A stretch of 64,000 nucleotides of DNA. Source: Escherichia phage phiP4. The stretch lies in the sequence record PP993145.1; one strand, 5' to 3'. Positions within the stretch are counted from its first letter, which is position 1. Every line of letters begins with the position of its first letter. The translations under genes and the position numbers were made by a program. Below, piece after piece: positions 4,853 to 21,870 of the stretch. Below the pieces are notes generated by a model. That model made no database searches. It was not told where the DNA came from and was given only the letters and a program-made list of their open reading frames with translations.

Positions 4853-5507
4853 GCGCTGCTAACCTGTCTTTATCTGATACTTTAATCATATCAGGCTCAC
4901 CAGTTCCTAGTACACCGAAGATATACTGTTCGAGAACTTGGTGTAAACGGTATAAGTTACTTTCAATTTCCTGCCACGGAATACCTGACTGATGGAAACG
5001 AATGTTAGTCTGAATTACGAAGTTACGAACATCATCGTTATCGTTCTTTTTAATACCTTTCACATATGCAATCGGTACGCGCAGTTCGGATAAGATACGT
5101 TCTGCTTTAGGTTTTGCTTCAGCTAGCAGATCACGCATTGTTTCACGAACATCTCCACGACTCTTATCCATTAAGTAAGAGCGAGCATGCAATCCCATCT
5201 CTTCCATTTTATCGAACATAGTGTCGAGATTAAACGTTTTGAAGCTAAATGCTGGATGCCAGCAGTACAGCTCGTGTAACCAGTAAACTTCACCTGCAAC
5301 AAACAGTGGATTTACGAAGTATTCGAAATCACCACGGAAAGATAGTGAACCATCACGAAATACCTGGCGAGTATGCACAATGTTCTTTTCTGCATCATCG
5401 GTTACTTTAACCAGCAACTCCTCAGTTTTACGTTCCCACACACGATCTGGGTCGAACAAACTGTTCTGCAAATCATACACATCGGCGAACTTAGAAATAA
5501 TCCTCAT
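4809..5507 (-). CDS. hypothetical protein
   Basis: 232-aa ORF, no recognised motif. Confidence 0.5.
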   Translation of the reverse strand: MRIISKFADVYDLQNSLFDPDRVWERKTEELLVKVTDDAEKNIVHTRQVFRDGSLSFRGDFEYFVNPLFVAGEVYWLHELYCWHPAFSFKTFNLDTMFDKMEEMGLHARSYLMDKSRGDVRETMRDLLAEAKPKAERILSELRVPIAYVKGIKKNDNDDVRNFVIQTNIRFHQSGIPWQEIESNLYRLHQVLEQYIFGVLGTGEPDMIKVSDKDRLAAHGFDTKTSFRNMAR

Positions 5508-6694: not shown

Positions 6695-7091
6695 GTTCTT
6701 CTCTCCGACGTTTACTTTCTTTCATCATATGAGCTGCTACAACTTCATGGTAGTAGTCATTAATGTTACCTTCTGGCAAGAAATGCTTAATAGTCTCTAA
6801 CTGACAAATAACTCGATGAAGATGGTTATTTGGTAGACACAATTTTATACCTGCAACAAATCCTGAGAAGCCTGGAATACTGAACATGGGTTTGGCTTCT
6901 ACTCTACCTTCAGAGTTGATGTTAAGCTCAATTGAAATACCCATTTTCATGCTATAAAGCTGGCAATATTCTCCATTACCAGACCTTGACCAAACAGTGA
7001 AGTCCTCATCAATTTGATCTTGGATTTCTGTAATTGCAAATTTAATTCTAGGGTCTAAATTATTCATCTTCACCTTCAAAGTCGCAATCAT
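6648..7091 (-). CDS. hypothetical protein
   Basis: 147-aa ORF. Confidence 0.4.
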   Translation of the reverse strand: MIATLKVKMNNLDPRIKFAITEIQDQIDEDFTVWSRSGNGEYCQLYSMKMGISIELNINSEGRVEAKPMFSIPGFSGFVAGIKLCLPNNHLHRVICQLETIKHFLPEGNINDYYHEVVAAHMMKESKRRREEREKTKHQQHSADPSN

Positions 7092-7365
7092 AACGACAAG
7101 TAAAAGAATCAGAACTATTAGTACGTTGAGTGGTTATTTCACCGCGTTTGCTAATAGTAACGGCTGGAGTAGAGAAGTTTTTATTAGTATATATTTCTAC
7201 TTTACCATTACGTTCCTTAACATCACGAACTTTACCATACTCGGTAATAATGCCGTTCTGTTGGACTTTAACATTACCATTTTTCATAGAAACTTTGGTA
7301 GACGCCAGAGAACCGAAACTAACTGCGGAGATCATCAGTGCAATAATAAACTTATTCATCTTCAT
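7060..7365 (-). CDS. secreted small protein
   Basis: Signal-peptide-like start MKMNKFIIALMISAVSFGSLAS; upstream part of the listed ORF is probably not translated. Confidence 0.4.
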   Translation of the reverse strand: MKMNKFIIALMISAVSFGSLASTKVSMKNGNVKVQQNGIITEYGKVRDVKERNGKVEIYTNKNFSTPAVTISKRGEITTQRTNSSDSFTCRYDCDFEGEDE

Positions 7366-10697: not shown

Positions 10698-10773
10698 TGG
10701 AGCGGCTAGAGGGAATCGAACCCTACTCAGCGAGGCTTGGAAGGCCTGCGACACAACCCGTGTGCTTAACCGC
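10698..10773 (-). tRNA. tRNA-Gly (UCC)
   Basis: Acceptor GCGGTTA/TAGCCGC, T-loop TTCGATT, anticodon loop CTTCCAA. Confidence 0.5.
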
Positions 10774-11477: not shown

Positions 11478-11704
11478 AATTGAAAACTCGCAGGGTTAGC
11501 GAAACCTTCCTCAATTAGCATGTTCTAGAATACTAATCAAGTTATCTCCTATTGCACGCAGCTCAAGACGAGTACGAATTTTCAATTGTGGCGGCTCTCA
11601 GAAACTCTTCTACTCTAGCTTTAGCAGCTTACTCCCGAACGCATGTCGGGGAAGTCTTACCAAGAGCATCAAATAGCACCGTTACACTTTGAGCCATAGA
11701 TGTA

Positions 11705-11800
11705 TCAAGAAGCAGAAGGATTTGAACCTTCACGAGATAGACCAGTTATCTCAGCCGCTTTATGAGGTATGTTGCAGGGAGTGGATGTTCCCTATAAACC
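11705..11800 (-). ncRNA. tRNA-like element, not foldable as a canonical tRNA
   Basis: Perfect T-arm GAAGG-TTCAAAT-CCTTC at 11716-11732 but no complementary 5' acceptor strand found within 100 nt; bounds are a guess. Confidence 0.25.
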
Positions 11801-12040
11801 TTTTAGGCAGCCCCGTCTACCGATTCCGGCATACTTCAAGAATTTTTTATAAACCAGCAGAAGCCTCATTTAAAGCATCAACAATAGCTTCACGTTGGGT
11901 CATTCCATACCCGGTGGAATCTAGGTGTGGCAAATAAGCCATCCATCCCTTATCTGTTTCATGAAGACATGCTTTAAATTTTTTACCATCCTTCATTGTT
12001 ACAGTAACTGTTTTGCTCATAAGATTTCCTTATAGTTAAT

Positions 12041-12130
12041 TGGCAGAAGATAATGGAGTCGAACCATCACCGTATCGCTACAGCGGGCTGGTTTTCAAGA
12101 CCAGTTACGTACCACTACGTCCTATCTTCT
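12041..12130 (-). tRNA. tRNA-Ser (UGA), type II
   Basis: Acceptor AGAAGAT/ATCTTCT, anticodon arm CTGGT-CTTGAAA-ACCAG (as in E. coli tRNA-Ser UGA), long variable arm, 90 nt. Confidence 0.65.
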
Positions 12131-12143
12131 AGTATTTATTATA

Positions 12144-12491
12144 CTAATAGTCACTCGTACTAGTGAAGTTTTCTACTTTTCCACAGATTTTACAAGTCCT
12201 ACGATGATAGTAGGTAATTTTTACTTTAGACCAGCCATCGTGATCATTACCTAGGTTTTCTGTTACTCCCCAAGTATGAGAACACTCATTTTCAATTTGC
12301 TTAGTAAGAGCGTTATAGCGAGTATAAAACTCCTCCTGAGCAATAGCAAATTCTTTCTGTAGTTTATCACGAGCAATAATAGCACGTTCCAGATATGTTA
12401 AATCAGGCATTCCAGCTTTTTCAGCAACATCTATAATCTTATCTTCATCTAAAGATGCTAAAAACTCTAGAGCTTTATCTTTTGTTAGCAT
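12144..12491 (-). CDS. hypothetical protein with C-terminal Zn-ribbon-like motif
   Basis: 115 aa; CSHTWG ... CKICGK. Confidence 0.4.
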   Translation of the reverse strand: MLTKDKALEFLASLDEDKIIDVAEKAGMPDLTYLERAIIARDKLQKEFAIAQEEFYTRYNALTKQIENECSHTWGVTENLGNDHDGWSKVKITYYHRRTCKICGKVENFTSTSDY

Positions 12492-12510
12492 TATTATTAC
12501 CTCAAGTGTT

Positions 12511-12601
12511 TGGCGGAAGAGGAGAGATTTGAACTCTCAAGCCGTTTTACCAGTCAGCCACTTTCCAAGCGGTTTTCGTCACCAATTCGATTTGCTCTTC
12601 C
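12511..12601 (-). tRNA. tRNA-Ser (GGA), type II
   Basis: Acceptor GGAAGAG/CTCTTCC, anticodon region CCGC-TTGGAAA-GTGG resembling E. coli tRNA-Ser GGA, long variable arm, 91 nt. Confidence 0.55.
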
Positions 12602-12611
12602 AATAATAAGA

Positions 12612-12706
12612 TGATGCCTCTATCACACCAGGCAGTTACGCCTCGCTGGGATTCGAACCCATTAAAACAGCTCAACCGAGATAGTAGGTTTAATTTACTC
12701 TGACCA
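12612..12706 (-). ncRNA. tRNA-like element / degenerate tRNA
   Basis: T-arm-like TGGG-TTCGAAT-CCCA at 12646-12662 without an adjacent acceptor stem; distal ends (12612-12618 and 12700-12706) are partly complementary. Confidence 0.25.
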
Positions 12707-12713
12707 TCAAATT

Positions 12714-12790
12714 TGGTGCGTGACAAGGGATTCGAACCCTCAAAACCCGACTTCTAAGGACGGTATGTATGCCAATTCCATCAATCACGC
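12714..12790 (-). tRNA. tRNA, anticodon UAG (Leu-type anticodon, short variable arm)
   Basis: Acceptor GCGTGAT/GTCACGC, T-arm GAGGG-TTCGAAT-CCCTT, anticodon loop CTTAGAA; anticodon stem has one mismatch. Confidence 0.45.
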
Positions 12791-12795
12791 ATATT

Positions 12796-12874
12796 TGGTG
12801 GAGAATAACGGAATCGAACCGTTCTGATGTCCTCGGTGCAAGCGAGGTGTCCACTCCATGCAGACCCATTCCCC
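12796..12874 (-). tRNA. tRNA-Ala (UGC)
   Basis: Acceptor GGGGAAT/ATTCTCC with G3-U70 pair, anticodon arm CCTCG-CTTGCAC-CGAGG. Confidence 0.65.
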
Positions 12875-12887
12875 AAATTCTTTAGTT

Positions 12888-13072
12888 TACTAAGGCTATT
12901 AGCTCGGCGTAACTACAGCACCTTCGCTTCGAGCGGAAGGAACTGCGTCATCTCGCAAACCCAATACACTATTCAGTTGCCGCTGAATCTAGTGGACCAA
13001 TCTAGAACTTCTCCCGAATCAGGGGGATCGTGCTTTTTGGCAGCCAGTCCTAGGTCGAGCTAATACCTTAGT
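12888..13072 (-). ncRNA. structured ORF-free element closed by terminal inverted repeat (candidate small RNA)
   Basis: About 16-nt inverted repeat taaggctattagctcg (12890-12906) / cgagctaatacctta (13055-13070) enclosing a GC-rich stretch with internal hairpins; strand not determined. Confidence 0.3.
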
Positions 13073-13159
13073 GAACTATGATGAGGATTTCTCCTCATCA
13101 ATTTATATAAATATTATAACAAGAAATTAAGCATCAAGCAACTGCGTTTTTTCTTGAAA

Positions 13160-13239
13160 TTGGTAGATCGCCTGGGACTCGAACCCAGAACCTTCCGATT
13201 AAAAGTCGGATGCTACTAAACCTATTGAGCTAGCGATCT
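13160..13239 (-). tRNA. tRNA-Lys (UUU)
   Basis: Acceptor AGATCGC/GCGATCT, anticodon arm TCCGA-CTTTTAA-TCGGA, T-arm CTGGG-TTCGAGT-CCCAG. Confidence 0.7.
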
Positions 13240-13428
13240 ATTAGTAACCATTATACACTTCTTTAATAGAGTGGACTTTTAAGTAAGGGTGATTAGTACT
13301 AAACTCTACCATTACTTCATCCCAATTTTTACCATAATGAGCAAGTAAGGATTTTGATGTATTCTTACCTAATCGTTTATCACTTACTACTAATCGAAAT
13401 ACTTTCATTTCGAAATCCTCTATTAAAA

Positions 13429-13506
13429 TGGAAGCGGGTGCAGGAATCGAACCTACCTCTTTCTAGCTTATGAGACTAGCGATCTCTACCAGAGATCTAA
13501 CCCGCG
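13429..13506 (-). tRNA. tRNA-fMet-like (CAU), initiator-type
   Basis: Anticodon loop CTCATAA; 5' end CGCGGGT with unpaired position 1-72 (C1/U72), the hallmark of bacterial initiator tRNA. Confidence 0.55.
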
Positions 13507-13512
13507 ATTATT

Positions 13513-13588
13513 TGGTCAGTGCGGCAGGACTCGAACCTGCGACCCGAAGCATCCAAGGCTCCCACGCTACCAACTGCGCTACGCACTG
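13513..13588 (-). tRNA. tRNA-Pro (UGG)
   Basis: Acceptor CAGTGCG/CGCACTG, D-arm GCGC-AGTTGGTA-GCGT, anticodon loop CTTGGAT. Confidence 0.65.
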
Positions 13589-13797
13589 TTAATTTTTGTT
13601 AACTCACTTTATAAGATATATTATACAGAGAATTAAGCAGAATAGCAAATGAATTTTTAATAAATTTACTTATTGTGTAGGCCACCTAGAGGCTATGAAC
13701 CCCACGGCTGACAAAGAAGTTTGCGAGACTTCTCTTAAATGCCAGAATAGACCCGCCGATCTATCGGAACCTACATAATAAGTAAACTTTATAGTGT

Positions 13798-13918
13798 CAT
13801 TCTAGACAGGACTCGAACCTGTTATCACTTGTGCGGACTTACGAGAACCATTCTTTCACTCGAATCGAACGAGCTTCTGCCCTCGCCAAGCTGGTTTCCC
13901 CATCAACCACGCTAGAAT
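13798..13918 (-). ncRNA. unusual tRNA-like RNA of about 120 nt (tRNA with large insertion or novel tRNA-like ncRNA)
   Basis: Perfect 7-bp acceptor pairing between 13799-13805 and 13912-13918, perfect T-arm ACAGG-TTCGAGT-CCTGT, D-arm-like TGGT-loop-ACCA, but about 45 extra nt between D-arm and T-arm including a second T-arm-like hairpin. Confidence 0.4.
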
Positions 13919-14040
13919 GTTTGATTGTTTTCAGTGCAAGAGTCCGAGTCTTGGACACGACCGCTTCGCAAGTACATAGGCAGCTTATCATGAGTCAGCA
14001 CTTCCGAATTGCTAGCTCCGTGTTCTGCACTGAAATTTTA

Positions 14041-14388
14041 TTAGTTTAACCGTAAAGTATTATCTACTTCACCATTAATTGTTCGGCATTCTTCTGGGAT
14101 TGCCGGGGTAGCCTTATATTCCCACCACTCAGCACCATCATATTCCCCACGTTCTAACCAAGTTCCATCGGCAAACCATACATTACCATAAAGTAATTGT
14201 CCACCGTATCCAGAATCATATTCAAAGTCTAGGTTATTAAGAAAATCCTCAATATCTTCTTCTGTATAACCTAAAGGTAATACCCAAACTTTTTTATCCC
14301 CATAATACCCGAATTCTATTTTAATACACTTAACTTCAGAATTAGTATTTTTTAAGGCAAGTAACAACTCTTCTTTAGCATTACGCAT
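14041..14388 (-). CDS. hypothetical protein
   Basis: 115-aa ORF. Confidence 0.4.
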   Translation of the reverse strand: MRNAKEELLLALKNTNSEVKCIKIEFGYYGDKKVWVLPLGYTEEDIEDFLNNLDFEYDSGYGGQLLYGNVWFADGTWLERGEYDGAEWWEYKATPAIPEECRTINGEVDNTLRLN

Positions 14389-14413
14389 AATATATTCTCA
14401 TACTGAATTAATT

Positions 14414-14490
14414 TGGCGCGACCGATGGGATTCGAACCCACATTCTCTCCCGTGACAGGGGAGTACCATTACCAAGCCAGCCCCGGTCGC
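14414..14490 (-). tRNA. tRNA-Asp (GUC)
   Basis: Acceptor GCGACCG/CGGTCGC, anticodon arm CTCCC-CTGTCAC-GGGAG. Confidence 0.7.
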
Positions 14491-14499
14491 ATGATCTGT

Positions 14500-14685
14500 T
14501 TATTCAGCTTTGAGTTTTTCAATAGCTGCATTAAGTTCTTTAAGAAACTCTTTTCGTACATTAAGACGATTGAGACTTACTAGTATATCATGTTTAAGTT
14601 CTTCGATGTATTTCTTCTCAACTTCAATATTGTTGATAGTGCTATCACGATGAACTTCTAACTGTGCAATTACATTCTTGGACAT
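14500..14685 (-). CDS. hypothetical coiled-coil protein
   Basis: 61-aa ORF. Confidence 0.35.
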   Translation of the reverse strand: MSKNVIAQLEVHRDSTINNIEVEKKYIEELKHDILVSLNRLNVRKEFLKELNAAIEKLKAE

Positions 14686-14787
14686 GCTTATTTCCTCAGT
14701 TATTAATGAAAATGGTATCTGTGGCTGAATTCGATGTCAGCAATGATAGCTGGTTGGCTACCGGTTTACTTAACTCTACACAGAATT

Positions 14788-14870
14788 TGGCGGGCCGTGT
14801 AGGATTCGAACCTACGTTGTCTTTCGACATGGATTAACAGTCCACCGCCAAACCGCTTGGCTAACGACCC
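14788..14870 (-). tRNA. tRNA-Asn (GUU) with extended variable arm
   Basis: Anticodon arm TGGA-CTGTTAA-TCCA as in E. coli tRNA-Asn; extra GTC-GAAA-GAC hairpin in the variable region; 83 nt. Confidence 0.55.
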
Positions 14871-15022
14871 TAAATTTATATTGCTGACTAGGATTTTCAC
14901 CTAGACGGAGTTAGCACCGTAGCGTGTAGCGGCATACCTCTCCAAACCGTGCCTCATCTTTCAATTACGGAGACAGTGTTCCTACGCGTGCCTGAATTGA
15001 TTTAACAATTCTTTCAGCAAAT

Positions 15023-15098
15023 TGGACGACCGCATGAGATTTGAACTCACATAAAAAGGATTTGCAATCCTTCGCCTAAGCCATTCAGCCAACGGTCG
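15023..15098 (-). tRNA. tRNA-Cys (GCA)
   Basis: Acceptor CGACCGT/GCGGTCG, anticodon arm AAGGA-TTGCAAA-TCCTT. Confidence 0.65.
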
Positions 15099-15165
15099 AT
15101 TTATTATCTTTCATAACGTGCAGCTACATGGTCGGAACCACAACACTTAAATCTAACTAATCGTT

Positions 15166-15408
15166 TCATTTAACACGCTCCGGTAGATCTTCTAGTTTAT
15201 ATTCAGTAGCCACATTAGCAGCATCTAAAAGTAATCCCATGTGTTTAAGGATTTTAGTGATAGATTCGCCTTTGGCTTCTTCTACGAAAGAACGTAGATG
15301 AACAAAGTCAATTCCACCGTCCATACCAGAGAAAATATTTAGTAAGCGAAGCATTACCAGCTTACGTTCATTCAATTCTTGTTCTGTCATGTTGCTTCTC
15401 CAGTTCAA
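15166..15408 (-). CDS. hypothetical protein
   Basis: 80-aa ORF. Confidence 0.35.
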   Translation of the reverse strand: MNWRSNMTEQELNERKLVMLRLLNIFSGMDGGIDFVHLRSFVEEAKGESITKILKHMGLLLDAANVATEYKLEDLPERVK

Positions 15409-15440
15409 TTTATATAATTATTATACAGAACTTTTGGAAA

Positions 15441-15728
15441 CTAAGCAACTACATTTTTTAAGAATTTGATGCCTTTCTTTTTCTTCTTATATTTCCACGT
15501 TAAGGGATTCTGTCGATTATGAACGCTTGAGATCTTCGTCTCGTCAAAGTTCTTCAATATCATGTAATCACAAGATAATTGTTCTAGTGGAATGTGATCA
15601 CCGTCAAAAGCGTATACATAAGGCTGTTGACTAGCACGATAATGATAGACTTTGTTAATTCTACGTTTCAGCGACTTATCCGCGCAGTAAATAAAGAAGT
15701 TTTCAGGATGCATCAGCAGCTCCTTCAA
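15441..15728 (-). CDS. hypothetical protein
   Basis: 95-aa ORF with TTG start. Confidence 0.35.
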   Translation of the reverse strand: MKELLMHPENFFIYCADKSLKRRINKVYHYRASQQPYVYAFDGDHIPLEQLSCDYMILKNFDETKISSVHNRQNPLTWKYKKKKKGIKFLKNVVA

Positions 15729-15730
15729 TT

Positions 15731-15805
15731 TGGTGCACCCTGTTCGTATCGAACGAACCTCTCAAGCTCTTCAGGCAAGCGCTAATCCATCTCAGCTAAA
15801 GGTGC
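15731..15805 (-). tRNA. tRNA-Phe (GAA)
   Basis: Acceptor GCACCTT/AGGGTGC, D-arm GCTG-AGATGGAT-TAGC, T-arm GTTCG-TTCGATA-CGAAC, anticodon loop CTGAAGA; anticodon stem has two U-U mismatches. Confidence 0.45.
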
Positions 15806-15812
15806 AAATTTT

Positions 15813-15888
15813 TGGCAAACCTACTAGGACTCGAACCTAGACCGTACGGTTTTGGAGACCGACATGCTGTCCAGTAACACTCTAGGAA
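15813..15888 (-). tRNA. tRNA-Trp-like (CCA anticodon arm), acceptor not resolved
   Basis: Anticodon arm TCGGT-CTCCAAA-ACCGT matches E. coli tRNA-Trp, T-arm CTAGG-TTCGAGT-CCTAG, but no complementary 5' acceptor strand; 5' bound is a guess. Confidence 0.35.
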
Positions 15889-15897
15889 TGCAGGAAT

Positions 15898-15974
15898 TGG
15901 CGTCCTGTGAGGGGATCGAACCCGCAAATCCTACCTTGAAAGGGTAGTGACTTTACCAGTTTGTCTAACAGGAC
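15898..15974 (-). tRNA. tRNA-Glu (UUC)
   Basis: Acceptor GTCCTGT/ACAGGAC, anticodon arm CTACC-CTTTCAA-GGTAG. Confidence 0.65.
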
Positions 15975-16947: not shown

Positions 16948-17024
16948 TGGTAGGGGTGGTGGGATTCGAACCCACAAAACCTGAATTTTAAGTCCAGTAC
17001 CTATGCCAATTCGATTACACCCCC
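16948..17024 (-). tRNA. tRNA, anticodon UAA (Leu-type anticodon, short variable arm)
   Basis: Acceptor GGGGGTG/CACCCCT, T-arm GTGGG-TTCGAAT-CCCAC, anticodon arm GGAGT... CTGGA-CTTAAAA-TTCAG. Confidence 0.5.
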
Positions 17025-17527: not shown

Positions 17528-17605
17528 TGGTGGCTCCCCGAGGATTCGAACCTACGTACCTTCCGGTTATGAGCCGGGTGCTCATACCATATGAGCTTGA
17601 GAACC
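17528..17605 (-). tRNA. tRNA, anticodon CAU (Met-type)
   Basis: Acceptor GGTTCTC/GGGAGCC, D-arm GCTC-ATATGGTAT-GAGC, anticodon arm CCGG-CTCATAA-CCGG; T-stem weak. Confidence 0.5.
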
Positions 17606-20123: not shown

Positions 20124-20137
20124 ACCAAAAAACAAAA

Positions 20138-20170
20138 GCCCCTGCCGAAAGGTAAGGGGCTTTTTCTTTT
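20138..20170 (+). terminator. rho-independent terminator (plus-strand unit)
   Basis: Hairpin gcccct-gccgaaaggta-aggggc followed by TTTTTCTTTT. Confidence 0.65.
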
Positions 20171-20184
20171 GCCTTAAATACAGA

Positions 20185-20220
20185 AAAGCCCGCGCTCTCG
20201 GAGGAAACGCGGGCTTGGTT
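20185..20220 (-). terminator. rho-independent terminator (SPFH gene)
   Basis: Hairpin agcccgcg...cgcgggct with T-run on minus strand, downstream of 20240..21187. Confidence 0.6.
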
Positions 20221-20239
20221 CGAAGATTACGTGTAACTA

Positions 20240-21798: not shown

Positions 21799-21870
21799 TA
21801 CCGACCGTAGGATTCGAACCTACATCTTCCACCAGTTACGGCTTGATAATACCAATTATACTAGGACGGC
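21799..21870 (-). ncRNA. tRNA-like element (possible pseudo-tRNA)
   Basis: T-arm GTAGG-TTCGAAT-CCTAC and near-complementary acceptor strands, but the anticodon arm does not fold. Confidence 0.3.

What the first reader, a model, noticed from the sequence alone, without database searches (positions are those of the whole stretch)
11480..15900. Several T-arm-bearing elements in the tRNA cluster that do not fold as canonical tRNAs
Besides 25 foldable tRNAs, at least four loci carry near-perfect T-arms without a matching acceptor stem or anticodon arm: 11705-11800, 12612-12706, 15813-15888 (Trp-type anticodon arm but no acceptor) and 21799-21870. One further segment, 14882-15020, has complementary ends (ttgctga / tcagcaa) and a hairpin ctagg-attttca-cctag. 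These may be pseudo-tRNAs, processing signals or small stable RNAs of the kind reported for T5-like phages.
Basis: seen in the sequence. Interest (0 to 1): 0.5.

Follow-up and report, generated by a model that had tools for sequence, protein, structure and literature searches.

The report
tRNA-shaped small RNAs in T5-like phage
Between the tRNA genes of this T5-like phage lie several conserved, tRNA-shaped RNAs that cannot decode codons; some match small stable RNAs already annotated in phage T5, and two are unannotated, one of them shared with an unrelated phage family.

Summary
The window is a T5-like phage (Demerecviridae), and all its tRNA genes are on the minus strand. The five loci are real but differ in kind.

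- **15813-15889:** an ordinary tRNA-Trp(CCA), called by ARAGORN and by Rfam. It has two conserved U·U mismatches in the acceptor stem.
- **21799-21870:** a conserved tRNA-like RNA found in 446 phage records. The acceptor, D and T arms are good, but the anticodon arm is 3-4 bp with a 6-nt loop, and no CCA is encoded.
- **11705-11800:** lies inside the homologue of T5 "RNA1" (11696-11840). This is a class-II tRNA shape whose anticodon loop is replaced by a ~50-nt extension.
- **12612-12709 ("D"):** a roughly 98-nt RNA with a T-loop hairpin, unannotated, with compensatory changes between two clades.
- **14881-15020 ("E"):** a 140-nt RNA with cloverleaf topology, an expanded anticodon domain and an odd T-loop (UGAAAAU). 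Of its 39 base pairs, 16 show compensatory changes. It has no Rfam hit and occurs in 219 phage records, including Klebsiella Mydovirus (Vequintavirinae).

All 25 tRNAs encode CCA, whereas E, RNA1, rna2 and the 21799 element do not.

The best reading is non-decoding tRNA mimics, co-transcribed with the tRNAs and cut out by tRNA-processing enzymes. Their function is unknown, as it is for T4 RNA C and RNA D. I rate this a new member of a known kind, of moderate interest.

The parts
14881..15020 (-). Element E, a 140-nt RNA with cloverleaf topology. It has a 7-bp acceptor-like stem (UUGCUGA/UCAGCAA), a 6-bp hairpin in the D-arm position, and a 10-bp helix in the anticodon-arm position that encloses a three-way junction. 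An 8-nt variable region follows, then a T-like arm (CUAGG-UGAAAAU-CCUAG) that abuts the 3' acceptor strand. No CCA is encoded. It begins 2 nt after the CCA of tRNA-Cys and ends 10 nt before tRNA-Asn.
   Evidence: 39 pairs, 99.3% of cells paired against 27-43% when partners are slid, 16 pairs changed on both sides, 0/500 shuffles reach this. Covariance model R1 scores 162.9 bits here, single copy. No Rfam hit. Present in 219 phage records, nearly all unannotated.
12612..12709 (-). Element D, a roughly 98-nt structured RNA. A terminal helix (UGAUG/CAUCA) stacks on an 8-bp helix (CCUaCUAUC/GAUAGAGG). That helix closes a junction carrying a canonical T-loop hairpin (UGGG-UUCGAAU-CCCA, 12647-12661) and a second hairpin. 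It always starts 4 nt after the CCA of tRNA-Leu(UAG). It does not have cloverleaf topology.
   Evidence: 22 pairs, 132/132 cells canonical, 6 compensatory and 3 one-sided changes between the E. coli/Salmonella clade and the Klebsiella clade. Present in 248 phage records.
11696..11840 (-). Homologue of T5 misc_RNA 'RNA1'. It has a class-II tRNA shape: acceptor stem, a D-arm that from memory resembles that of tRNA-Leu, a long variable arm and a canonical T-arm. The anticodon loop is replaced by a ~50-nt extension ending in an invariant loop, GAACAUCCACUC. No CCA is encoded.
   Evidence: blastn to AY692264 RNA1, 85% over 145 nt. Rfam tRNA 26.5 bits at 11707-11838 with a 45-nt insertion; 37 pairs, 95% paired against 39-49% slid, 10 pairs changed on both sides.
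11589..11695 (-). Homologue of T5 RNAI (107 nt). Terminal stem GGCUC/GAGCC followed by GCCA.
   Evidence: 92% to the AY692264 feature.
11479..11584 (-). Homologue of T5 RNAIII (106 nt). It has a 12-bp terminal stem and abuts the 5' end of tRNA-His.
   Evidence: 99%; z = -2.9.
21799..21870 (-). Conserved tRNA-like RNA without CCA. The acceptor, D and T arms are tRNA-like. The anticodon arm is reduced to a 3-4 bp stem with the 6-nt loop GUAACU.
   Evidence: Rfam tRNA 35.5 bits. ARAGORN calls it only at a relaxed threshold. Present in 446 phage records, annotated as nothing, tRNA-OTHER or tRNA-Sec, and as a pseudo-tRNA in T5 record AY587007; 3 of 4 pairs of the short stem changed on both sides.
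15813..15889 (-). Ordinary tRNA-Trp(CCA) with an encoded CCA end and tandem U·U mismatches at 2-71 and 3-70. The mismatches are conserved in Klebsiella T5-like phages.
13795..13919 (-). It has cloverleaf topology: an 8-bp acceptor (CAUUCUAG/CUAGAAUG), a D-like arm with GG in its loop, an expanded anticodon domain holding a second T-loop-like hairpin, and a canonical T-arm. No CCA is encoded.
   Evidence: 97%; 36 pairs, 8 with changes on both sides.
13674..13776 (-). Homologue of T5 RNAIV. It folds into a four-way junction with an 8-bp terminal stem.
   Evidence: 96%; z = -3.6.
12894..13065 (-). Homologue of T5 RNA2H (172 nt). It has a long terminal helix and lies just downstream of the P13b-like promoter.
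   Evidence: 96%; z = -3.5.
12511..12601 (-). Low-scoring tRNA-Ser(GGA) with an encoded GCCA end. It lies immediately downstream of D.
   Evidence: Annotated tRNA-Ser in chee24.

Best explanation
The five loci are not one kind of thing.

**What each locus is**
- 15813-15889 is a working-type tRNA-Trp.
- The other four belong to a set of at least nine small structured RNAs interleaved with the tRNA genes of T5-like phages.
- Four of that set (RNA1, rna2, E and the 21799 element) keep the tRNA cloverleaf topology: a 7-8 bp acceptor stem with the T-arm stacked directly on its 3' strand, and an arm in the D position.
- In these four the anticodon arm is either expanded into a 50-70-nt domain or shrunk to a 6-nt loop.
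- None of the four encodes the 3' CCA that every true tRNA in the cluster encodes.
- D is a different fold that displays a canonical T-loop hairpin.

**How they most likely work (inferred)**
- They are transcribed by host RNA polymerase from the early promoters of the tRNA region, as parts of polycistronic tRNA/ORF precursors.
- Because they present the acceptor/T-arm stack that RNase P and the 3' tRNA-trimming enzymes recognise, they are excised like tRNAs and accumulate as stable small RNAs.
- They cannot decode. I propose they act in trans as tRNA mimics that engage tRNA-binding host or defence proteins. This last step is conjecture.

**Shown versus inferred**
- Shown here: identity with annotated T5 RNAs, conserved secondary structures with compensatory changes, the CCA difference, the distribution across phages, and the absence of the elements from T5 itself.
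- Inferred: transcription, processing and stability.
- Speculative: the trans-acting function.

**How the confidence breaks down**
- About 0.9 for what each locus is.
- About 0.6 for the processing route.
- About 0.25-0.3 for the trans-acting mimic function.
For: **Identity**
- The window is T5-like.
- The T5 st0 record annotates RNAIII, RNAI, RNA1, RNA2H, RNAIV and rna2 as misc_RNA. All six map to the window at 85-99% identity.

**Structure under selection**
- E: 99.3% of cells paired and 16 of 39 pairs changed on both sides, against 0-2 such pairs when partners are slid.
- RNA1: 95% of cells paired, 10 of 37 pairs changed on both sides.
- The 21799 element: 3 of 4 pairs in the short anticodon stem changed on both sides.
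- D: 132/132 cells canonical, with 6 compensatory pairs.
- rna2: 8 pairs changed on both sides.
- Invariant G·U pairs (for example 29-111 and 78-91 in E) are valid only on the minus-strand transcript.

**Non-decoding**
- There is no 7-nt anticodon loop with U33 in any of the four tRNA-shaped RNAs.
- 22 of 22 ARAGORN tRNAs and the three low-scoring tRNAs encode CCA. E, RNA1, rna2 and the 21799 element do not.

**Co-transcription**
- All elements are on the tRNA strand.
- They start 2-4 nt after an upstream tRNA CCA end.
- T5 P13a- and P13b-like promoters are present, and no strong minus-strand terminator lies between the elements.

**Not merely punctuation**
- E sits between two tRNAs that are themselves processing sites.
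- Even so, its internal domain is conserved between Demerecviridae and Vequintavirinae.

**Precedent**
- T4 rnaC carries a perfect T-arm.
- T4 RNA C and RNA D are expressed stable RNAs of unknown role (PMC3014915, PMC9697503).
Against: - No transcript, processing or stability data were available for this phage. The experimental basis of the T5 misc_RNA features could not be read in the paper library.
- Only 2-3 diverged lineages exist for D and E, so each compensatory change represents few independent events.
- D lacks the acceptor/T-arm arrangement, so the RNase P argument does not apply to it directly.
- E's T-loop (UGAAAAU) and D-position loop lack the consensus residues that form the tRNA elbow. 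Recognition by tRNA enzymes is therefore assumed, not shown.
- T5 itself lacks both D and E, and laboratory deletions of the tRNA region are viable (PMC11464382, PMC12483538). Any function is therefore accessory.
- Nothing found here points to a specific protein partner.
Confidence: 0.6

Rival explanations
1. They act only in cis, as processing or punctuation signals. The tRNA-like folds would exist to direct RNase P or RNase E cleavage, separating neighbouring tRNAs and small-ORF mRNAs, and the excised pieces would have no function of their own.
For: All elements lie within polycistronic tRNA/ORF units and start 2-4 nt after a tRNA CCA end. RNA1, RNAI and RNAIII lie between an ORF and tRNA-His, and rna2 and RNAIV lie between an ORF and promoter P13a. 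These are places where an extra cleavage site could be useful.
Against: - E lies between two tRNAs with 2-nt and 10-nt spacers, where no extra processing site is needed.
- The interiors of E and RNA1 hold invariant loops and junction sequences conserved across genera and even families: GAACAUCCACUC in RNA1, and GGAGAGG, GCUACACG and CUAAC in E. A simple cleavage signal would not need these.
Confidence: 0.2
2. They are decaying pseudo-tRNA genes, relics of duplicated tRNAs that are drifting without function.
For: - The 21799 element is flagged as a pseudo-tRNA in AY587007 and as tRNA-OTHER or tRNA-Sec elsewhere.
- RNA1 looks derived from a class-II tRNA.
- T5 tolerates the absence of D and E.
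Against: - Compensatory double substitutions maintain every helix, including the aberrant anticodon stems.
- The elements persist in 219-446 phage records spanning Tequintavirus, Epseptimavirus and Sugarlandvirus, and for E also Mydovirus.
- The inserted domains are themselves conserved.
Confidence: 0.07
3. RNA1 and E are interrupted tRNA genes. The extra domain in the anticodon arm would be an intervening sequence that is removed to give a functional tRNA.
For: In both RNAs the insertion sits exactly at the anticodon-loop position of a cloverleaf. Bacterial and phage tRNA genes with group I introns in the anticodon loop are known (established knowledge).
Against: - The inserts are 50-70 nt, far below group I intron size, and match no Rfam intron or ribozyme family.
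- The junction sequences are not conserved as an anticodon loop: the position-33 residue is U in the window but G in T5 RNA1.
- In E, removing the insert leaves no loop at all.
- No CCA is encoded, unlike every tRNA in the cluster.
Confidence: 0.04
4. The segments encode small peptides or opposite-strand proteins rather than RNAs.
For: - Mechanical ORFs overlap the elements: 12547-12726(-), 59 aa; 11689-11937(+), 82 aa; 13831-14049(+), 72 aa.
- E contains GGAGAGG-U-AUG followed by a 12-codon frame that ends at the UGA in the T-loop (read).
Against: - The AUG of the E mini-frame is AAG in phage Shiner.
- The substitution pattern is pairwise-compensatory, not period-3.
- The plus-strand ORFs run against the direction of all transcription units here.
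- G·U pairs fix the functional strand as minus.
Confidence: 0.03

Closest known systems
Small stable RNAs of phage T5 (RNAI, RNAIII, RNA1, rna2, RNA2H, RNAIV; misc_RNA features of GenBank AY692264)
   Same: - Six of the window's elements are direct sequence homologues at 85-99% identity, in the same order between the same tRNA genes.
- D and E share the genomic setting, the size range (100-170 nt), the strand and the tight spacing to tRNAs.
   Different: - D and E have no counterpart in T5. Their slots hold an HNH_3 ORF and a T5orf172/MUG113-domain ORF instead.
- D and E show no sequence similarity to any T5 RNA.
- The 21799 element is annotated in T5 as a pseudo-tRNA, not as a stable RNA.
Phage T4 species 1 and 2 RNAs (rnaC, rnaD)
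   Same: These are small stable RNAs of 139 and 119 nt encoded in a phage tRNA cluster. rnaC carries a perfect T-arm, CCGGG-UUCGAAU-CCCGG. Their function is unknown after decades (PMC3014915, PMC9697503).
   Different: There is no sequence homology beyond the 13-nt T-arm consensus. The model of E finds nothing in the T4 locus.
Canonical tRNA (Rfam RF00005)
   Same: - Cloverleaf topology with tRNA spacing: 7 bp, 2 nt, arm, 1 nt, arm, variable region, T-arm, 0 nt, 7 bp.
- RNA1, rna2 and the 21799 element keep the GG of the D-loop and the UUCRANU T-loop.
   Different: - There is no 5-bp anticodon stem with a 7-nt loop, and no encoded CCA.
- E also lacks the T-loop and D-loop consensus.
- Only the 21799 element reaches the Rfam gathering score.
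Other tRNA mimics (tmRNA tRNA-like domain, bacterial YrlA Y-RNA, plant-virus 3' tRNA-like structures)
   Same: The general principle is shared: an acceptor/T-arm mimic combined with a non-decoding domain.
   Different: ARAGORN finds no tmRNA and Rfam gives no match to tmRNA or YrlA-type families. In YrlA the RNA termini form the Ro-binding stem rather than the acceptor stem, and viral tRNA-like structures are the 3' ends of genomic RNAs (both from established knowledge).

Membership tests
Canonical tRNA (RF00005) | Covariance-model score at or above the Rfam gathering score (29 bits), or an ARAGORN call | tested here: inconclusive
   - 15813-15889: met (36.3 bits plus an ARAGORN Trp call).
- 21799-21870: met for Rfam only (35.5 bits); ARAGORN calls it only at a relaxed threshold.
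- 11707-11838: not met (26.5 bits).
- D and E: not met, no hit at E<=10.
Canonical tRNA (RF00005) | A 5-bp anticodon stem closing a 7-nt loop with U33 | tested here: not met
   This is met only by tRNA-Trp. The 21799 element has a 3-4 bp stem and a 6-nt loop. RNA1, rna2 and E have 50-70-nt domains in this position. D has no such arm.
Canonical tRNA of this phage | Genomically encoded 3' CCA after the discriminator base | tested here: not met
   22 of 22 ARAGORN tRNAs, plus Ser(GGA), Met at 17531 and Gly at 10701, encode CCA. E, RNA1, rna2 and the 21799 element do not, and neither do their homologues. tRNA-Trp does encode it.
T5 small stable RNAs (AY692264 misc_RNA set) | Sequence homology and synteny with an annotated T5 misc_RNA | tested here: inconclusive
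   Met for 11696-11840 (RNA1, 85%), and for RNAI, RNAIII, RNA2H, RNAIV and rna2. Not met for D and E: they are absent from the T5 loci and have no similarity to the T5 RNAs.
T5 small stable RNAs / T4 RNA C and D (stable small RNAs from a phage tRNA cluster) | Accumulates as a discrete, stable, processed RNA in infected cells | not testable with these tools
   No expression data were available. The primary T5 papers are not in the searchable library.
tmRNA | A tRNA-like domain combined with a tag reading frame, detectable by ARAGORN or Rfam | tested here: not met
   ARAGORN finds no tmRNA and Rfam gives no hit. The 12-codon frame inside E loses its AUG in phage Shiner.
Pseudo-tRNA (non-functional relic) | No selection on structure: helices decay in relatives | tested here: not met
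   Helices are kept by compensatory changes in E, RNA1, D, rna2 and the 21799 element.

The most novel reading that the evidence does not exclude
T5-like phages, and through E some Vequintavirinae, carry a dedicated class of CCA-less tRNA mimics with a remodelled anticodon arm. On this reading they are made by the host tRNA-processing pathway and act as decoys or sponges for tRNA-binding proteins, for example tRNA-targeting anti-phage nucleases or tRNA-modifying and processing enzymes. They would complement the nuclease-resistant phage tRNAs already known from T5. E would then be a mobile RNA module that moves between the tRNA arrays of unrelated phages and competes for the same inter-tRNA slots as nuclease-domain ORFs.
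Probability: 0.2. Interest if true: 0.8.

Novelty: new member of a known kind. Interest (0 to 1): 0.45.

Why it matters
Phage tRNA clusters have recently been recognised as counter-defence loci: T5 tRNA-Lys acts against PARIS (PMC11464382) and T5 tRNA-Tyr against retron Eco7 (PMC11555353). The non-tRNA RNAs interleaved with these genes have been ignored by annotation pipelines and have no assigned function, like T4 RNA C and D.

This analysis gives concrete candidates to test:
- It shows the elements are under structural selection.
- It shows that four of them are tRNA-shaped but systematically CCA-less and unable to decode.
- It shows that one of them (E) is shared between two phage families.
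- It supplies coordinates, structures and a covariance model for adding them to RNA family databases and phage annotation.

The finding also corrects the tRNA count. Trp, Ser(GGA), Met at 17531 and Gly at 10701 are tRNAs; the 21799 element is not a decoder.

Tried and rejected
- **Wider family for E.** I scanned IMG/VR with GCCGCTACACGCTACGG and JGI metagenomes and GTDB genomes with CTACACGCTACGGNNCTAAC. These returned only T5-like and Mydovirus copies plus chance matches. L008, L011, L017 and L023 are a coding gene. L027, L029, L043 and L044 give no hit to the E model.
- **T-arm pattern scan.** Scanning IMG/VR with GTCTNGGTGAAAATCCNAG gave weak model hits of 15-20 bits. L045, L046, L048 and L050 show period-3 substitutions and are therefore protein-coding, and L049 is low complexity. 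Only L047 is a genuine tRNA-like RNA.
- **Homology to T4 or between elements.** Nothing is shared beyond the T-arm consensus.
- **tRNA parent.** I looked for a close parent of RNA1, E and rna2 among the phage's own tRNAs and found no convincing match.
- **tmRNA or mini-ORF reading of E.** Rejected, because the AUG is lost in phage Shiner.
- **Intron reading.** Rejected on insert size, the lack of a conserved anticodon loop and the lack of CCA.
- **MAFFT alignments of E and D.** MAFFT misaligned the 5' strands. I replaced these with hand alignments. The hand alignment of E was held in place by padding gaps with N. D was counted by script on the hand alignment.
- **Alternative hairpin in E.** ACGG..CCGU (columns 104-108 with 115-119) is compatible with all sequences but excludes the long-range helix. 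I prefer the long-range helix because pair 31-109 (C-G to G-C) is explained only by it. A conformational switch is not excluded.
- **Literature.** Searches for the primary T5 stable-RNA work found nothing readable.
- **KKP_3822 copy of E.** Set aside as a probably error-rich sequence with homopolymer deletions.

Full report
**Source and layout**

The 4.4-kb region matches T5-like phages (Demerecviridae). The best matches are Escherichia phage Stokescottia at 97% and chee24 at 95%, with 647 records matching in all. ARAGORN finds 22 tRNA genes, all on the minus strand between 9.2 and 21.3 kb. Rfam finds 22 tRNA matches, two of which ARAGORN does not call: 17531-17605 and 21799-21870. The elements must therefore be read on the minus strand.

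**Checking the observation**

The T-arm consensus GGTTCRANTCC occurs 22 times in the window, against 0.12 expected by chance. Every copy is on the minus strand inside the tRNA region.

Six copies lie outside the ARAGORN tRNAs:
- 10712, a low-scoring tRNA-Gly
- 11718
- 12649
- 13809
- 17542, a low-scoring tRNA-Met
- 21810

The complementary ends and the 5-bp/7-nt hairpin at 14881-15020 are present as described. The five loci, however, turn out to be different things.

**Locus 15813-15889: an ordinary tRNA**

ARAGORN calls this tRNA-Trp(cca) with a complete cloverleaf. Rfam gives 36.3 bits, and the gene ends in GCCA. The Klebsiella phages Shiner and Roth37 have the same two mismatches, although other pairs of the acceptor and T stems are changed compensatorily. 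The mismatches are therefore a conserved peculiarity, not decay.

**Locus 21799-21870: tRNA-like, but not a decoder**

Rfam scores it at 35.5 bits. ARAGORN finds it only at a relaxed threshold, with a meaningless anticodon. It is present in 446 phage records and is annotated as nothing, as tRNA-OTHER or as tRNA-Sec. T5 record AY587007 flags it as a pseudo-tRNA.

Six variants were aligned. They support the acceptor, D and T stems and a short 3-4 bp stem closing a 6-nt loop. Three of the four pairs in that short stem change on both sides. Overall, 83% of cells are paired, against 32-49% when partners are slid. The standard 5-bp/7-nt register gives purine-purine mismatches and G33 in the window variant. 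No CCA is encoded.

**Locus 11705-11800: part of a known T5 RNA**

The T5 st0 record AY692264 annotates six misc_RNA features between the tRNA genes: RNAIII, RNAI, RNA1, RNA2H, RNAIV and rna2. All six map to the window:

| T5 feature | Window coordinates (minus strand) | Identity |
|---|---|---|
| RNAIII | 11479-11584 | 99% |
| RNAI | 11589-11695 | 92% |
| RNA1 | 11696-11840 | 85% |
| RNA2H | 12894-13065 | 96% |
| RNAIV | 13674-13776 | 96% |
| rna2 | 13795-13919 | 97% |

Rfam aligns 11707-11838 to the tRNA model end to end at 26.5 bits, with a 45-nt insertion in the anticodon loop and a long variable arm.

Eight homologues were aligned, including T5 and the Klebsiella Sugarlandvirus phages. 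Across 37 pairs, 95% of cells are paired, against 39-49% when slid. Ten pairs change on both sides: four in the acceptor stem, two in the anticodon stem and four in the extension. The hairpin loop GAACAUCCACUC is invariant. From memory, the D-arm (CCG-GAAUCGGUAGA-CGG) resembles that of bacterial tRNA-Leu. A comparison with the phage's own tRNAs gave no close parent.

**Locus 14881-15020 (element E): a new conserved tRNA-shaped RNA**

E matches no Rfam family at E<=10. It is present in 219 phage records and is almost never annotated. T5 and chee24 lack it. In those phages the slot between tRNA-Asn and tRNA-Cys holds a 172-aa ORF with T5orf172/MUG113 domains.

Besides E. coli, Salmonella, Klebsiella and Yersinia T5-like phages, E occurs in Klebsiella Mydovirus (Vequintavirinae). 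There it lies between two tRNA-Ser genes, at 75% identity.

A structural alignment of seven variants gives six helices:

| Feature | Description |
|---|---|
| Acceptor-like stem | 7 bp |
| Spacer | 2 nt (AA) |
| Hairpin in the D-arm position | 6 bp |
| Spacer | 1 nt |
| Bulged helix in the anticodon-arm position | 10 bp, enclosing a variable hairpin and a conserved hairpin with loop GGAGAGG |
| Variable region | 8 nt |
| T-like arm | 5 bp, loop UGAAAAU, directly abutting the 3' acceptor strand |

This is exactly the spacing of a tRNA cloverleaf.

Of the cells, 99.3% are paired, against 27-43% when partners are slid. Sixteen of 39 pairs change on both sides, and 0 of 500 shuffles reach this. 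An alternative local hairpin (ACGG..CCGU) is also compatible with all sequences, but it cannot explain the C-G to G-C switch at pair 31-109.

A covariance model finds one copy per genome (162.9 bits in the window) and none in T5, chee24 or T4. Scans of IMG/VR, JGI metagenomes and GTDB genomes added no further lineage.

E starts 2-3 nt after the CCA of an upstream tRNA: Cys in the window, Asn in the Klebsiella T5-like phages and Ser in Mydovirus. It encodes no CCA of its own.

**Locus 12612-12709 (element D): conserved, but not cloverleaf-shaped**

D matches no Rfam family. It is present in 248 phage records. It always begins 4 nt after tRNA-Leu(UAG), and is followed either by tRNA-Ser or by an ORF. 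T5 has an HNH_3 ORF at this position instead.

Two clades were compared, the E. coli/Salmonella/Yersinia type and the Klebsiella type. All 132 cells across 22 proposed pairs are canonical, with six compensatory and three one-sided changes. The changes lie in the 8-bp helix, in the T-loop hairpin (UGGG/CCCA against CAGG/CCUG) and in the second hairpin.

The T-loop hairpin sits in an internal junction, not next to the terminal helix. D is therefore not a tRNA mimic in the same sense as E.

**A diagnostic that separates tRNAs from mimics**

All 22 ARAGORN tRNAs encode a 3' CCA. So do the three low-scoring tRNAs: Ser(GGA) at 12511-12601, Met at 17531 and Gly at 10701. E, RNA1, rna2 and the 21799 element do not, in the window or in their homologues. 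RNAI ends in GCCA.

It is established that E. coli can process CCA-less T4 tRNA precursors (RNase BN) and add CCA. Lack of an encoded CCA therefore does not by itself exclude a CCA end in vivo.

**Other elements in the range**

- rna2 (13795-13919) also has cloverleaf topology: an 8-bp acceptor, a D-like arm with GG in its loop, an expanded anticodon domain containing a second T-loop-like hairpin, and a canonical T-arm. Eight pairs change on both sides.
- RNAIV folds into a four-way junction (z = -3.6).
- RNA2H folds into a long-stemmed structure (z = -3.5).

**Transcription context**

Homologues of T5 promoters P13a and P13b are present (the consensus scan finds TTGCTA-17-TATAAT at 13648-13620). 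There are no strong minus-strand terminators between the elements. Mechanical ORFs overlapping the elements are short or on the wrong strand. The 12-codon frame inside E loses its AUG in Shiner.

**Mechanism**

- *Shown:* these are conserved, strand-specific RNA structures. Four are tRNA-shaped and cannot decode.
- *Inferred:* they are co-transcribed with the tRNAs and excised by RNase P and the 3' tRNA-maturation enzymes, because they present the acceptor/T-arm stack. They would then accumulate as stable RNAs, as implied for the T5 homologues by their misc_RNA annotation and as shown for T4 RNA C and D (PMC9697503).
- *Speculative:* they act in trans as tRNA mimics.

A purely cis "punctuation" role is less likely for E, which lies between two tRNAs and has a strongly conserved interior. 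The relic, intron and coding readings are each contradicted (see the rival explanations).

The function must be accessory. T5 lacks D and E, and deletions of the tRNA region are viable (PMC11464382, PMC12483538).

**Comparison and novelty**

The closest known systems are the T5 small stable RNAs and T4 RNA C and D, whose biological roles are unknown (PMC3014915). Direct homology places the 11705-11800 locus in the already-annotated T5 set.

D and E are unannotated members of the same kind of element. E is notable for its full cloverleaf topology with a non-consensus elbow and for its presence in a second phage family. The systematic absence of an encoded CCA in the mimics and the conserved 6-nt-loop variant at 21799 are, as far as I could check, not recorded in the annotations examined.

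Overall this is a new member of a known kind, of moderate interest.

Noticed in passing
window 12714-12790 and 16948-17024 (minus strand): Both tRNAs with Leu anticodons (UAG, UAA) are 77 nt with a 5-nt variable loop. This is a class-I shape rather than the long-variable-arm class-II shape usual for bacterial tRNA-Leu. T5's 85-nt tRNA-Leu1 gave no blastn hit in the window. Phage phiR2-01 annotates the homologue as tRNA-Pseudo-TAG.
   Followed up: no
L047:4181-4248 (minus strand; IMGVR_UViG_3300032312_001269): A 68-nt tRNA-like RNA ending in CCA lies 6 nt after a tRNA-Gly in an unrelated viral contig's tRNA cluster. Its acceptor is GCGGAAA/UUUCCGC and it has the same unusual T-arm, GUCUUGG-UGAAAAU-CCAAG, as the Mydovirus copy of E. 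Its 'anticodon' loop is only 5 nt. Both ARAGORN and Rfam miss it.
   Followed up: partly
window 13920-14045 (minus strand): A 126-nt segment lies between an ORF and rna2. It has a 10-bp terminal stem (UUUCAGUGCA/UGCACUGAAA). It is 99% identical in T5 but unannotated there. It may be another stable RNA or a processing hairpin.
   Followed up: partly
L005 ~5145-5230, L024 ~7085-7165, L025 ~7117-7200: In Klebsiella and Yersinia T5-like phages, E is followed immediately by a further ~75-nt GC-rich segment that looks structured (UAGGGUAAGAACAGCGACUUAGG...GGUGCGCCCUAAU). The window lacks it.
   Followed up: no
L040:607-678 (Salmonella phage S132) and L041 (Obesumbacterium phage Ob_P): The Epseptimavirus variant of the 21799 element has the loop CUUCACC and is annotated tRNA-SeC-TCA. 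In the standard register it could be read as a near-canonical tRNA with a UGA-reading anticodon (4 of 5 stem pairs). The window variant cannot be read this way.
   Followed up: partly
T5 and chee24 loci: L001:5758-6276, L002:5026-5610: The inter-tRNA slots that hold E and D in the window are occupied in T5 and chee24 by a T5orf172/MUG113-domain ORF and an HNH_3 ORF respectively. Nuclease-domain ORFs and structured RNAs therefore appear to be alternative cargo at the same positions.
   Followed up: partly
window 20126-20227 (minus strand): A strong terminator-like hairpin lies at 20216-20186 (12 bp, followed by a T-run). It attracts several weak sub-threshold Rfam leader and sRNA matches, such as anti-hemB and Thr_leader. 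It is probably just an intrinsic terminator.
   Followed up: no
Phage collection records OR847827 (Listeria phage LM 4-11-1, 1517 bp) and MG065692 (Campylobacter phage C13): These records carry copies of E at 100% (OR847827) and 79% (MG065692, to the Mydovirus copy) and, for C13, the 21799 element at 92%. The host labels look inconsistent with T5-like sequences and may reflect contamination or mislabelling.
   Followed up: no
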